A stretch of DNA of 38,175 nt, from positions 1 to 38,175 of IMG/VR virus record IMGVR_UViG_3300005573_000026; one strand, 5' to 3'. The translations under genes were made by a program, and so were the position numbers. Below, in pieces: positions 3,744 through 3,966 of this stretch; within the stretch, counting starts at the first letter, position 1, and each line of letters begins with the position of its first letter. Origin of the DNA: a virus. The notes beneath the pieces were generated by a model. The model did not search any database. It was not told where the DNA came from and was given only the letters and a program-made list of their open reading frames with translations.

Positions 3744-3784
3744 AAAAATAAAAAAGCCCGTCCGGCGCACGTCGGACAAGCGAA
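3744..3784 (-). terminator. Intrinsic terminator at the 3' end of the GC-rich RNA
   Basis: The minus strand reads GCTTGTCCGaCgtgcGcCGGACGGGC followed by TTTTTTATTTTT. The peptidase RBS follows immediately. Confidence 0.65.
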
Positions 3785-3932
3785 TCTTGCCGCTGGAGGC
3801 GTCGAACCCCCTTCCCCCGGCCTTGGTTTCCCAGCCTGGCGGAGCTGGGAACCCAAGTTGGCCCCGGGGCCCGCCAACCCCAGGACCGCCGAGGTCCACA
3901 CCCTTGGAGCGGCCATCTTTAGCTCCTTTCAC
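3750..3932 (-). ncRNA. GC-rich structured RNA of unknown family with a tRNA-like T-arm and acceptor stem. It could be a stand-alone ncRNA or a cis-regulatory leader.
   Basis: It is bounded by a perfect promoter and a terminator. The closing stem is GCCGCT (3913..3908) paired with AGCGGC (3794..3789). The hairpins lie at 3883..3897, 3856..3879 and 3825..3854. The T-arm-like hairpin is GGGGG-TTCGACG-CCTCC (3811..3795). By hand count, 85 of 120 nt in 3781..3900 are G/C. Confidence 0.6.
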
Positions 3933-3937
3933 TTATA

Positions 3938-3966
3938 ATTATAGCATTTTGTTTTGTACCTGTCAA
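3938..3966 (-). promoter_or_regulatory. Sigma70-type consensus promoter driving the GC-rich RNA and leftward operon
   Basis: On the minus strand: TTGACA (3966..3961), 17-nt spacer ending in TGC, TATAAT (3943..3938). Confidence 0.8.

What the first reader, a model, noticed from the sequence alone, without database searches (positions are those of the whole stretch)
3744..3966. Promoter-to-terminator GC-rich structured RNA with a tRNA-like end, sitting as the leader of the metallopeptidase operon
A perfect TTGACA-17-TATAAT promoter (3966..3938) fires leftward into about 180 nt that are about 70% G+C. By hand count, 85 of 120 nt in 3781..3900 are G/C, against 16 of 60 in the flank 3941..4000.

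The transcript can form a closing stem GCCGCT/AGCGGC that encloses four hairpins. The last hairpin is GGGGG-TTCGACG-CCTCC, a 5-bp stem with a 7-nt TTCGA-type loop. It abuts the 3' strand of the closing stem exactly as a tRNA T-arm abuts the acceptor stem.

A 12-nt perfect palindrome GGCCCCGGGGCC sits in the second hairpin. The element ends in a GC hairpin plus T-run. The AGGAGG-ATG of the first HExxH peptidase gene follows immediately.

The element is too long and irregular for a canonical tRNA and too short for tmRNA or RNase P RNA. I could not match it by eye to SRP RNA, 6S RNA or common riboswitch cores. It could be one of three things:
- a tRNA-mimicking ncRNA (bacterial and phage Y-RNA-like molecules have this kind of tRNA-like module);
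- a decoy for tRNA-processing or tRNA-targeting enzymes;
- a terminator-controlled leader or riboswitch gating the accessory operon.
Basis: partly seen in the sequence, partly recalled or inferred. Interest (0 to 1): 0.85.

Follow-up and report, generated by a model that had tools for sequence, protein, structure and literature searches.

The report
New tRNA-shaped phage RNA gene
A hot-spring-type phage carries a small, strongly expressed RNA gene whose product folds like a transfer RNA, except that two long hairpins with matching loops replace the anticodon; it matches no catalogued RNA family and its function is unknown.

Summary
Window 3744-3966 (- strand) holds a perfect sigma-70 promoter, a 125-nt core of 74% G+C in a 36% G+C genome, and a strong intrinsic terminator.

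Two diverged copies lie upstream of the orthologous HExxH gene in other metagenome contigs (L002, L003). They prove a conserved fold: 98.7% of pair cells are paired. 24 of 54 pairs carry compensatory changes on my hand alignment, and 20 of 46 on an unbiased MAFFT/RNAalifold run.

The fold is a four-way junction:
- a 6-bp acceptor-like stem;
- a D-like arm with a conserved GG;
- a canonical T-arm (GGUUCGAnnCC) stacked on the acceptor;
- in place of the anticodon arm, a 7-bp stem that splits into two ~12-bp hairpins. Their invariant 6-nt loops (UGGCGG, CCGCCA) are fully complementary.

ARAGORN and Rfam find nothing. ARAGORN does call a tRNA once the insert is swapped for a 7-nt loop.

The 63-aa ORF is not conserved. 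The terminator folds independently of the core, so a riboswitch is unlikely. One relative lacks the gene and another carries a deletion of it, so it is accessory.

Best reading: a stand-alone, moron-like tRNA-mimic ncRNA gene. Its target is unknown, and whether the loops pair within or between molecules is unresolved.

The parts
3938..3966 (-). Sigma-70-type promoter: -35 TTGACA 3966..3961, extended -10 TGcTATAAT 3946..3938. The inferred transcription start is about 3930-3932.
   Evidence: 12/12 match, TG present. Searches show that homologues carry equally good promoters (TTGAC..TGCTATAAT). The start site is inferred, not measured.
3914..3931 (-). 5' leader of about 17 nt, predicted to be removed by RNase P. 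In the window only, it contains an SD-like AAAGGAG plus ATG.
   Evidence: The ATG is ACG in L002 and L003, so the start codon is not conserved. Processing is inferred.
3908..3913 (-). Acceptor-like closing stem, 5' strand GCCGCU. G3914 faces A3788 as a conserved purine-purine mismatch (G-A, G-G, G-A in the three homologues).
   Evidence: 6 pairs, 3 with compensatory changes (GC/AU, UA/CG, GC/UA).
3896..3907 (-). D-like arm: a 3-4-bp stem (CCA(A)/(G)UGG) with a loop containing a conserved GG.
   Evidence: helix 2 has 2 of 4 pairs compensatory. GG is invariant (alignment columns 15-16).
3888..3894 (-). Stem S, 5' strand CCUCGGC. This 7-bp stem takes the place of the anticodon stem.
   Evidence: helix 3 has 3 of 7 pairs compensatory and is 100% paired.
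3860..3887 (-). Hairpin H2: 11-12 bp with the invariant 6-nt loop UGGCGG (3876..3871). Its 3' strand holds the incidental palindrome GGCCCCGGGGCC.
   Evidence: helix 4 has 8 of 12 pairs compensatory. The loop is invariant in all three homologues.
3822..3857 (-). Hairpin H3: a 3-5-bp outer stem, a small internal loop or bulges, a 6-10-bp inner stem, and loop U-CCGCCA-G (3843..3836). It follows an invariant AA linker (3859..3858).
   Evidence: helix 6 has 6 of 15 pairs compensatory and is 100% paired. The loop is invariant. The loop is fully complementary to the H2 loop; the duplex energy is about -12 kcal/mol at 37 C and -5.7 at 75 C.
3815..3821 (-). Stem S, 3' strand GCCGGGG, followed by a 3-4-nt A-rich junction (3814..3812).
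   Evidence: helix 3.
3795..3811 (-). T-arm: 5-bp stem GGGGG/CCUCC with the 7-nt loop UUCGACG. The motif GGUUCGAnnCC is invariant.
   Evidence: 2 of 5 pairs compensatory. One search shows the motif occurs only once in the window (0.10 expected by chance).
3789..3794 (-). Acceptor-like stem, 3' strand AGCGGC, directly abutting the T-stem. It is followed by A3788, A3787 and G3786. No CCA is encoded.
3744..3781 (-). Intrinsic terminator: GCUUGUCCG-ACGUGCGC-CGGACGGGC followed by U6AU5.
   Evidence: L002 and L003 have a different but equally strong hairpin plus U-run at the same place. It folds independently of the core.
3183..3739 (-). Context: SD AGGAGG (3739..3734) and the first gene of the accessory operon, a 181-aa HExxH protein starting at ATG 3728. 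No promoter-like site was listed between the terminator and the ATG.
   Evidence: The protein is a weak paralogue of the 174-aa M78-like protein.

Best explanation
This is a separate RNA gene with its own promoter and terminator, inserted like a moron (a self-contained inserted gene cassette) between the early leftward promoter region and a small accessory operon. The phage is an AT-rich, hot-spring-type podovirus-like phage.

The primary transcript is about 185 nt. It folds into a very stable tRNA-shaped molecule:
- an acceptor-like stem coaxial with a canonical T-arm;
- a D-like arm whose GG can dock on the T-loop to make the tRNA 'elbow';
- instead of an anticodon arm, a rigid 7-bp stem carrying two ~12-bp hairpins whose 6-nt loops (UGGCGG and CCGCCA) base-pair.

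I infer that the host enzymes that read the tRNA elbow and acceptor handle this RNA like a pre-tRNA. These are RNase P (or its protein-only equivalent), the 3' trimming and CCA-adding enzymes, and the T-loop modification enzymes. The product would be a stable species of about 126-128 nt.

Because it has no anticodon it cannot decode. Its most likely role is to occupy, titrate or redirect a host factor that binds tRNA through the acceptor/T-arm half during infection, that is, to act as a tRNA mimic or decoy.

What is shown: the gene boundaries (by consensus signals), the fold, the tRNA-like signature, the non-coding nature and the accessory distribution. What is inferred: processing, stability, trans action and the target.
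For: Real structured RNA:
- 24 of 54 pairs have both-side changes and 98.7% of cells are paired, against 32-52% in slid controls.
- The same fold, with 20 of 46 compensatory pairs, comes from an unbiased MAFFT + RNAalifold run.
- The covariance model scores 112-136 bits on the three copies.

tRNA likeness:
- GGUUCGAnnCC T-loop, GG in the D-loop, and a T-stem abutting the acceptor 3' strand.
- ARAGORN calls a tRNA in the window copy at default settings once the branched insert is replaced by a 7-nt loop; at the relaxed 90% threshold the part of that output I saw also shows a call for L002.
- The model cross-hits genuine tRNAs weakly.

Independent gene:
- Perfect promoter and strong terminator.
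- L002 has a second, dedicated promoter directly upstream of the RNA.
- The terminator is conserved in function but not in sequence, and folds independently of the core.

Not coding:
- The ATG is ACG in homologues, indels shift the frame, and the best-frame amino-acid identity is only 13-17 of 41.

Accessory:
- The RNA is absent from the related phage L216.
- It is removed by a microhomology deletion in L004.

Thermophile context explains the G+C:
- Relatives come from hot-spring metagenomes.
- The predicted fold persists at 75 C.

Precedent:
- RNase P processes non-tRNA phage RNAs (PMC11143913).
- T4 rnaC has a T-arm abutting its closing stem.
Against: - There is no expression, processing or end-mapping data.
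- Only three full copies exist, all from one narrow phage lineage, so the loop invariance could partly reflect relatedness.
- The acceptor stem is 6 bp plus a mismatch rather than 7 bp, and there is no U8/N9 linker, so recognition by tRNA enzymes is not guaranteed.
- No CCA is encoded.
- The scan listed no promoter-like site between the terminator and the first ORF. The RNA unit therefore also sits in the operon's 5' leader and must influence its expression.
- No candidate protein partner or target was identified in the window.
Confidence: 0.6

Rival explanations
1. It is a cis-acting leader: an attenuator, a protein- or ligand-controlled terminator, or a put-like antiterminator. The structured RNA would exist to set how much transcription passes the terminator into the HExxH operon.
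For: - It lies between the promoter and the first ORF.
- The scan listed no promoter-like site in the ~20-45 nt between the terminator and the ATG.
- The RNA co-occurs with the HExxH operon in all copies found.
Against: - The core and the terminator are separated by 7-8 nt, and each folds on its own in all three homologues. No conserved alternative pairing exists.
- There is no hit to any riboswitch or leader family.
- The junctions are nearly perfect (0, 2 and 0 nt), leaving no obvious ligand pocket.
- The precise tRNA signature has no role in known attenuators.
- L002 adds a dedicated promoter for the RNA.
- The L004 deletion variant keeps the terminator without the RNA.
Confidence: 0.15
2. 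It is a self-assembling RNA. This would build dimers, rings or chains that display several tRNA-like heads.
For: - The two 6-nt loops are invariant and complementary over all six positions.
- From general knowledge of TAR/TAR*- and ColE1-type complexes, fully paired 6-7-nt kissing complexes make the two stems quasi-coaxial. That is hard to achieve in cis for two 12-bp arms joined by only AA.
- The near-perfect three-way junction is rigid.
- Natural RNA-only oligomers held together by kissing loops are documented (PMC12286853, seen).
Against: - There is no covariation in the loops, so pairing itself is unproven.
- H2 and H3 have similar lengths in all homologues (about 11-12 against 13-14 layers). 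This also fits a side-by-side cis contact, as in the SRP Alu domain or the purine riboswitch.
- There are no experimental data.
Confidence: 0.2
3. It is a decayed tRNA gene or a tRNA-derived attachment-site remnant that carries a chance insertion, with no function of its own.
For: - The top half is tRNA-like.
- L004 retains just the T-loop-to-3'-end segment, the part typically kept at phage att sites.
Against: - The insert itself is the most strongly covarying part: 8 of 12 pairs in H2 and 6 of 15 in H3 are compensatory.
- The loops are invariant.
- The unit keeps a dedicated consensus promoter and terminator.
- No integrase was found among the proteins scanned.
- The L004 junction is explained by an AAAAAGG microhomology deletion.
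Confidence: 0.04
4. It is protein-coding: either the 63-aa ORF 3725..3916, or an N-terminal extension of the peptidase (249-aa ORF 3183..3932), as automatic gene callers have annotated it.
For: - Open reading frames exist.
- In the window an SD-like AAAGGAG precedes the ATG.
- JGI called a 249-aa product (P0010) and ORFs across the RNA in L002-L004.
Against: - The start codon is not conserved (ACG in L002 and L003).
- Length differences of 1-3 nt shift the frame.
- Amino-acid identity is 13-17 of 41 in the best frame, while 83-85 of 126-128 nt are identical and the substitutions are pairwise compensatory.
- G+C-rich DNA lacks stop codons by chance.
Confidence: 0.01
5. It is an origin-associated transcript: a primer or transcriptional activator of the adjacent putative replication origin.
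For: The promoter lies 60-500 nt from three origin-like features: 25-nt iterons (4028-4126), the genome-wide cumulative GC-skew minimum (4265) and the lowest-G+C stretch (4305-4454). This is similar to the origin region proposed for Aquificae viruses (PMC7689252).
Against: - Transcription runs away from the iterons.
- The related phage L216 keeps the iterons but lacks the RNA.
- The L004 deletion variant exists.
- The tRNA-like fold and terminator are not explained by this role.
Confidence: 0.05

Closest known systems
Phage T4 small stable RNAs: rnaC (species 1, 139 nt) and rnaD
   Same: - It is a phage-encoded, roughly 120-140-nt stable non-coding RNA.
- rnaC has a canonical T-arm (CCGGG-UUCGAAU-CCCGG) next to the 3' strand of a closing stem, plus long extra arms instead of a normal anticodon arm.
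- My model scores rnaC about like genuine T4 tRNAs (11.6 bits).
- From my own knowledge, its function is still unknown.
   Different: - There is no sequence homology.
- The T4 RNAs sit inside a tRNA gene cluster and are cut out of a polycistronic precursor. This RNA has its own promoter and terminator.
- The branched arm with complementary loops is not seen in the rnaC fold.
Bacterial and phage Y RNAs (YrlA)
   Same: Both are non-coding RNAs with a module mimicking the tRNA T-arm, D-arm and acceptor stem. Some YrlA RNAs are cut by RNase P and receive CCA (PMC4201824).
   Different: - In YrlA the 5' and 3' ends form the Ro/Rsr-binding helix, and the gene lies next to rsr.
- Here the ends form the acceptor stem, and no TROVE protein was found among the larger proteins scanned.
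- There is no Rfam hit.
tmRNA tRNA-like domain
   Same: Both have an acceptor stem plus T-arm joined to a large non-tRNA body. The only Rfam model touching the T-arm region is tmRNA, at 6.4 bits.
   Different: - There is no tag ORF and there are no pseudoknot rings.
- There is no G3:U70 alanine identity pair.
- It is 125 nt against more than 250 nt.
- ARAGORN's tmRNA search is negative.
phi29-family prohead RNA (pRNA)
   Same: Both are phage RNAs of about 120 nt built on a three-way junction, with two loops that are complementary to each other.
   Different: - There is no Rfam pRNA hit.
- This phage packages DNA with a TerL/TerS terminase and a P22-like portal, and replicates with PolA. It does not use a phi29-type motor.
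- pRNA has no tRNA-like module.
SRP RNA Alu domain and the purine-riboswitch 'tuning fork'
   Same: Both have a closing stem, a three-way junction and two hairpins whose loops contact each other through G-C pairs. This is the model for an intramolecular loop-loop contact.
   Different: - The helices here are far longer.
- The junction has no ligand pocket.
- Six of six loop positions are complementary.
- There is no SRP or riboswitch hit in Rfam.
P1/P7 C4 antisense RNA
   Same: Both are small phage RNAs encoded at the 5' end of the operon. C4 is released by RNase P (cited in PMC11143913).
   Different: C4 acts through loop complementarity to sites downstream in its own mRNA. Here the only good complement of each loop is the other loop. 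The other CTGGCGG sites in the window are inside genes and close to chance expectation.

Membership tests
Canonical tRNA | T-arm: 5-bp stem and 7-nt loop with G53-T54-Psi55-C56-R57-A58...C61, stacked on the acceptor stem | tested here: met
   GGUUCGAnnCC is invariant. The 5-bp stem has compensatory changes and directly abuts the acceptor 3' strand.
Canonical tRNA | 7-bp acceptor stem, U8/N9 linker, and a D-arm with G18 G19 | tested here: inconclusive
   The acceptor has 6 Watson-Crick pairs plus a conserved purine-purine 1:72-like mismatch. No linker nucleotides separate the acceptor from the D-like stem. The D-like stem is 3-4 bp with a conserved GG.
Canonical tRNA | Anticodon arm (5-bp stem, 7-nt loop), and detection by tRNA finders | tested here: not met
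   The arm is replaced by a 7-bp stem plus two hairpins (71-73 nt). ARAGORN finds 0 genes in the window, L002 and L003. Rfam shows no tRNA hit even at E<=10. A tRNA is called only after in-silico replacement of the insert.
tmRNA | tRNA-like domain plus an internal tag reading frame and pseudoknots; alanine identity pair G3:U70 | tested here: not met
   ARAGORN's tmRNA mode is negative. Rfam tmRNA scores 6.4 bits against a gathering score of 47. Pairs 2-4 of the stem are G-C, C-G, C-G, with no G:U. At 125 nt there is no room for a tag ORF.
Y RNA / YrlA | Ro/Rsr-binding helix formed by the 5' and 3' ends, and a gene adjacent to a TROVE-domain rsr | tested here: not met
   Here the ends form the acceptor-like stem. 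Pfam scans of 30 of the larger ORFs show no TROVE domain; ten of those plus ten further ORFs were scanned against PHROGs only, and a few small ORFs were not scanned. No Rfam hit. Defining features are taken from PMC4201824.
phi29-type pRNA | Three-way junction RNA with inter-complementary loops, in a phage with a phi29-like packaging motor; Rfam Phage_pRNA | tested here: not met
   The junction and complementary loops are present. However, there is no Rfam hit, and the phage has TerL, TerS and a P22-like portal.
Riboswitch / transcription-attenuation leader | Mutually exclusive pairing between the sensor domain and the terminator (an expression platform) | tested here: not met
   The terminator hairpin and the core fold independently in all three homologues at 70 C, and at 37 C in L002 and L003; in the window copy the 37 C MFE deviates but the centroid keeps part of the terminator stem. 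No conserved alternative helix exists. No leader or riboswitch family matched.
Phage moron (autonomous inserted transcription unit) | Own promoter and own terminator, inserted between genes, present in some relatives and absent in others | tested here: met
   Promoter and terminator are present. L002 has an extra dedicated promoter. The unit is absent in L216 and deleted in L004. Expression itself was not tested.
RNase P substrate / CCA-tailed tRNA-like RNA | Cleavage at the 5' end of the acceptor stem and 3' CCA addition | not testable with these tools
   Only the structural prerequisites are seen: the elbow, 11-12 stacked layers of acceptor plus T-stem, a 5' leader of about 17 nt and a 3' trailer.

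The most novel reading that the evidence does not exclude
The RNA is a self-assembling tRNA mimic. The two invariant, fully complementary 6-nt loops pair between molecules, so the rigid three-way-junction arms polymerise into closed dimers, rings or chains. The assembly would be thermostable, RNA-only and display many acceptor/T-arm heads. It would act as a multivalent trap or scaffold for a host tRNA-binding enzyme or an anti-phage tRNA-targeting toxin.
Probability: 0.18. Interest if true: 0.88.

Novelty: new variant of a known kind. Interest (0 to 1): 0.68.

Why it matters
tRNA mimicry by phage non-coding RNAs is known only from a few cases, and most of them have no known function. T4 rnaC and rnaD have been unexplained for decades, and phage YrlA is another case.

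This element is a compact example supported by covariation. It shows a clean modular design: an intact 'top half' of tRNA, fused to a rigid branched domain with self-complementary loops. It comes from a hot-spring phage lineage with almost no annotated genes.

Its uses would be:
- an experimentally tractable, hyper-stable model for asking what phage tRNA mimics bind (RNase P or HARP, CCA-adding enzyme, modification enzymes, acceptor-end-targeting toxins);
- a test of whether natural kissing-loop oligomerisation extends to small RNAs;
- a practical annotation fix. Gene callers currently translate this RNA as protein (249-aa and 46-109-aa 'hypothetical proteins').

Tried and rejected
- **Known RNA families.** Rfam at gathering threshold on the whole window, and at E<=10 on 3650-4200 and on L002-L004, gave only noise. 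ARAGORN tRNA/tmRNA searches were negative.
- **More homologues by DNA.**
  - blastn against GenBank phages found nothing.
  - An exact T-arm/acceptor pattern found nothing in IMG/VR.
  - Motif patterns of the form GGCGGG..CCGCCA..GGTTCRA gave many hits in IMG/VR (two stringencies), JGI metagenome contigs and GTDB genomes.
  - These collections evidently do not contain this phage lineage, since even the source contigs of L002 and L003 were not returned.
- **More homologues by proteins.**
  - The 181-aa HExxH protein has only 5 relatives among 5.8 billion proteins.
  - The neighbouring early protein gave four more contigs, none with the RNA.
  - IMG/VR has no relatives of the nuclease or primase neighbours apart from one 24%-identical hit.
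  - The capsid and PolA have no close GenBank relatives.
- **Function of the downstream protein.** The AlphaFold model was too poor (pLDDT 47) for a fold search. PDB, PADLOC and NCBIfam searches were uninformative.
- **Intron-containing or class II tRNA reading.** Rejected because both hairpins are enclosed by one 7-bp stem, and no 7-nt anticodon loop can be drawn.
- **Antisense target search for the loops.** Only 3 other CTGGCGG sites, all inside genes and near chance expectation.
- **Integration-site remnant.** Rejected (see rival explanations).
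Full report
**1. What is in the sequence**

On the minus strand, window 3966..3938 is a perfect extended -10 sigma-70 promoter, TTGACA-17-TGcTATAAT, with 12 of 12 matches. About 17 nt downstream begins a 125-nt core (3913..3789) that is 74% G+C. The genome is 36% G+C. This is the highest 100-nt G+C value in the whole window: 0.74 against a mean of 0.359 and sd of 0.066.

Seven nucleotides after the core comes a 9-bp G+C-rich hairpin followed by U6AU5 (3781..3744). This is a textbook intrinsic terminator. Then come AGGAGG and the ATG (3728) of a 181-aa HExxH protein.

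The single-sequence fold gives -98 kcal/mol with a z-score of -3.1 against dinucleotide shuffles.

**2. Genome context**

The window is an essentially complete ~38-kb podovirus-like phage genome. It encodes PolA with a 3'-5' exonuclease, a prim-pol/helicase, a PD-(D/E)XK nuclease, RusA, TerS, TerL, a P22-like portal and a major head protein. No integrase, reverse transcriptase or TROVE protein was found among the proteins scanned.

It has no close relatives in GenBank phages or IMG/VR.

Contigs encoding relatives of its early proteins come from hot-spring metagenomes:
- IMG 3300010938 is Chocolate Pots hot springs (PMC6137239).
- IMG 3300022548 is a hot-spring microbial mat (PMC7490370).

Several features resemble the uncultivated Aquificae 'Pyrovirus' genomes (PMC7689252):
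- size, about 36% G+C, and two divergent gene blocks;
- a repeat-bearing intergenic region at the GC-skew switch.

The polymerase organisation differs, however. A thermophilic host is therefore inferred, not shown. It would explain why a structural RNA is G+C-rich inside an AT-rich genome. The predicted fold survives at 75 C.

The RNA heads a bounded leftward unit:

promoter 3966 -> RNA -> terminator -> four genes (181-aa HExxH; 310 aa; 174 aa just under the Peptidase_M78 threshold; 136 aa) -> bidirectional terminator at 1072-1106.

Another perfect promoter at 232..204 starts the next block.

**3. Homologues and proof of structure**

The HExxH protein has only four relatives (63-69% identity) among 5.8 billion proteins. 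Their contigs show the following:
- L002 and L003 carry a diverged copy of the RNA at the same place, with 83-85 of 126-128 nt identical.
- L004 carries a deletion derivative.
- L005 is cut off just before the gene start.

I made a hand structural alignment (A3). On it, 98.7% of pair cells are standard pairs and 24 of 54 pairs show changes on both sides. Sliding the partners by 1-3 columns drops pairing to 32-52%, with 0-5 compensatory pairs.

That alignment was fitted by me, so I also ran RNAalifold on MAFFT's own alignment. It recovers the same architecture, with 20 of 46 compensatory pairs. Every helix has compensatory changes.

A covariance model (R1) scores 112-136 bits on the three copies. 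It finds no second copy in the window.

**4. Anatomy**

The RNA is a four-way junction with these elements:

- **(i) Acceptor-like stem.** Six bp, GCCGCU/AGCGGC, topped by a conserved purine-purine mismatch (G-A, G-G, G-A).
- **(ii) D-like arm.** It follows immediately, with no linker. It has a 3-4-bp stem and a loop with an invariant GG.
- **(iii) Stem S.** One nucleotide later, a 7-bp stem S.
- **(iv) T-arm.** After a 3-4-nt A-rich junction comes a 5-bp T-stem with the 7-nt loop UUCGAnn. GGUUCGAnnCC is invariant. The T-stem is directly continuous with the acceptor 3' strand.

Stem S opens into a near-perfect three-way junction (0, 2 [AA] and 0 unpaired nt) that bears two hairpins:
- H2 has 11-12 bp.
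- H3 has 11-13 bp, interrupted by a small internal loop or bulges.

Their stems vary freely: 8 of 12 pairs in H2 and 6 of 15 in H3 are compensatory. Their loops are invariant, UGGCGG and (U)CCGCCA(G), and are complementary over all six positions. As a simple duplex, the pairing is worth about -12 kcal/mol at 37 C and -5.7 at 75 C.

No CCA is encoded. The acceptor strand is followed by A/G-A-G.

**5. How tRNA-like is it?**

ARAGORN and Rfam find nothing in any copy. I then replaced the H2/H3 insert in silico by a 7-nt loop. ARAGORN now calls a tRNA in the window copy at default settings; at the relaxed 90% threshold the part of that output I saw also shows a call for L002.

R1 cross-hits genuine tRNAs weakly: 22 bits in a tRNA-bearing G+C-rich phage locus and 10-12 bits on T4 tRNAs.

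So the acceptor/T-arm/D-loop 'top half' of tRNA is preserved, and the anticodon arm has been replaced. It is not a tRNA, tmRNA or Y RNA by their defining features (see the membership table).

**6. It is not a protein and not a classical riboswitch**

Evidence against coding:
- The window's ATG is ACG in both homologues.
- Length differences of 1-3 nt shift the frame.
- The best-frame amino-acid identity is 13-17 of 41.

Open frames are expected in 57-74% G+C sequence. Gene callers were nevertheless fooled. JGI has a 249-aa product that fuses the RNA to the peptidase (P0010) and 46-109-aa ORFs across the RNA in L002-L004.

Evidence against a riboswitch or attenuator:
- The terminator is 7-8 nt beyond the closed acceptor stem.
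- It differs in sequence between the window and L002/L003.
- It folds independently of the core at 70 C in all three copies, and at 37 C in L002 and L003 (in the window the 37 C MFE deviates, though the centroid keeps part of the stem). No conserved alternative pairing exists.

**7. It is an accessory, moron-like unit**

- L002 has two tandem consensus promoters, the second immediately upstream of the RNA.
- L004 keeps the first promoter, then jumps at an AAAAAGG microhomology directly into the T-loop. This deletes the second promoter and the 5' ~110 nt of the RNA but retains the terminator.
- The more distant relative L216 keeps the upstream iterons and a consensus promoter, but runs straight into a different first gene with no RNA.

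The RNA is therefore dispensable for replication and morphogenesis, and is gained and lost as a unit.

**8. Most likely mechanism**

*Shown:*
- an autonomous transcription unit, judged by consensus signals;
- a conserved fold with a tRNA elbow and acceptor mimic;
- a non-decoding 'bottom';
- an accessory distribution.

*Inferred:*
- The ~185-nt transcript is trimmed like a pre-tRNA. RNase P, or the protein-only HARP if the host is an Aquificaceae, would cut at G3914/G3913. The 3' end would be trimmed and CCA added after A3788/A3787.
- It accumulates as a hyper-stable RNA of about 126-131 nt.
- It acts in trans by occupying a host factor that reads the acceptor/T-arm half of tRNA.

*Precedents:*
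- RNase P processing of non-tRNA phage RNAs (PMC11143913).
- tRNA-enzyme recognition of YrlA (PMC4201824).
- T4 rnaC, whose T-arm likewise abuts its closing stem.

I put 0.6 on 'stand-alone trans-acting tRNA mimic'. The specific decoy or titration role is perhaps half of that.

Because the scan listed no promoter-like site after the terminator, the unit must also throttle the HExxH operon. This may be a side effect or part of the design. The cis-leader rival gets 0.15.

**9. The open structural question**

The two loops could touch within one molecule, side by side as in the SRP Alu domain or the purine riboswitch. The similar lengths of H2 and H3 in all copies fit this.

Alternatively they could pair between molecules, as in phi29 pRNA or the kissing-loop assemblies of ROOL and GOLLD (PMC12286853). 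Full 6-of-6 complementarity of 6-nt loops on rigid arms joined by only AA favours the trans reading. This rests on general knowledge of kissing-complex geometry, not on anything tested here.

No loop covariation exists in three sequences, so pairing itself is unproven. I give the self-assembly reading about 0.18-0.2.

**10. Limits**

- Only three full copies exist, all from one lineage.
- The motif scans of IMG/VR, JGI metagenome contigs and GTDB genomes returned only chance matches in G+C-rich DNA. Those collections also failed to return the known source contigs, so absence elsewhere is not established.
- No expression data exist.
- The host and temperature are inferred from relatives.

**11. 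Verdict**

This is a real structured RNA gene with no match in Rfam 15. The element is a new variant of the tRNA-mimic ncRNA kind. Its function is unknown but experimentally tractable.

Noticed in passing
window 4028-4126 (also L216 about 615-700 and L004 11-25): Four tandem ~25-nt units containing CGACGACGGC-type cores, able to form alternative short hairpins. They lie just upstream of the RNA promoter. Similar GAAGCAGCCGTCGTC repeats at ~24-25-nt spacing occur in the related phage L216 and once in L004. They look like iterons or operators of the divergent control region or origin.
   Followed up: partly
window 4265 and 4305-4454: The genome-wide cumulative G-C skew minimum falls at 4265. The lowest-G+C 150-nt stretch (16%) is at 4305-4454, between the divergent promoters. 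Together with the iterons, this looks like a replication origin, as proposed for Aquificae 'Pyrovirus' genomes.
   Followed up: partly
L004 60-250 compared with L002 1-340 and L003 1-220: L004 is a natural deletion variant. It has the upstream promoter, then an AAAAAGG microhomology junction straight into the T-loop. This removes the RNA's own promoter and about 110 nt of the RNA but keeps its last ~24 nt and the terminator.
   Followed up: yes
L002 28-118: Two tandem consensus promoters (TTGACT..TGCTATAAT and TTGACA..TGCTATAAT), about 60 nt apart, lie upstream of the RNA. The window has only one.
   Followed up: partly
window 3183-3932 and 3725-3916; L002 1-330; L003 60-200; L004 40-243: Automatic gene calls translate the RNA as protein: a 249-aa GTG-start fusion with the HExxH protein (P0010), a 63-aa ORF in the window, and 46-109-aa 'hypothetical proteins' in the homologues. 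These are annotation artefacts of stop-poor G+C-rich sequence.
   Followed up: yes
window 232-1072: An ~850-nt stretch with no ORF above 53 aa lies between a 16-bp bidirectional terminator (1072-1106) and another perfect TTGACA-17-TATAAT promoter (232..204, - strand). It is unusual for a phage of this coding density. It has a 50% G+C patch at 301-400. Small genes or another non-coding element were not examined.
   Followed up: no
window 4733-4761 and 4453-4481 (+ strand): A second perfect (12/12, with TG) promoter and an 11/12 promoter point rightward into the replication genes. Together with 3966 and 232, this phage uses at least three exact sigma-70 consensus promoters.
   Followed up: no
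window 3183-3728 and 1562-2086: The two HExxH proteins of the operon are distant paralogues (27% identity over 105 aa, E=2e-5). Only the 174-aa one approaches Pfam Peptidase_M78 (21.7 bits against a cut-off of 22). 'Metallopeptidase operon' is plausible but weakly supported. The 181-aa family has only 5 members among 5.8 billion proteins.
   Followed up: partly
L002 3223-3345: Several unrelated Rfam leader and sRNA models give sub-threshold hits (24-32 bits) on one spot at the end of the homologous operon. It is probably just a strong terminator hairpin.
   Followed up: no
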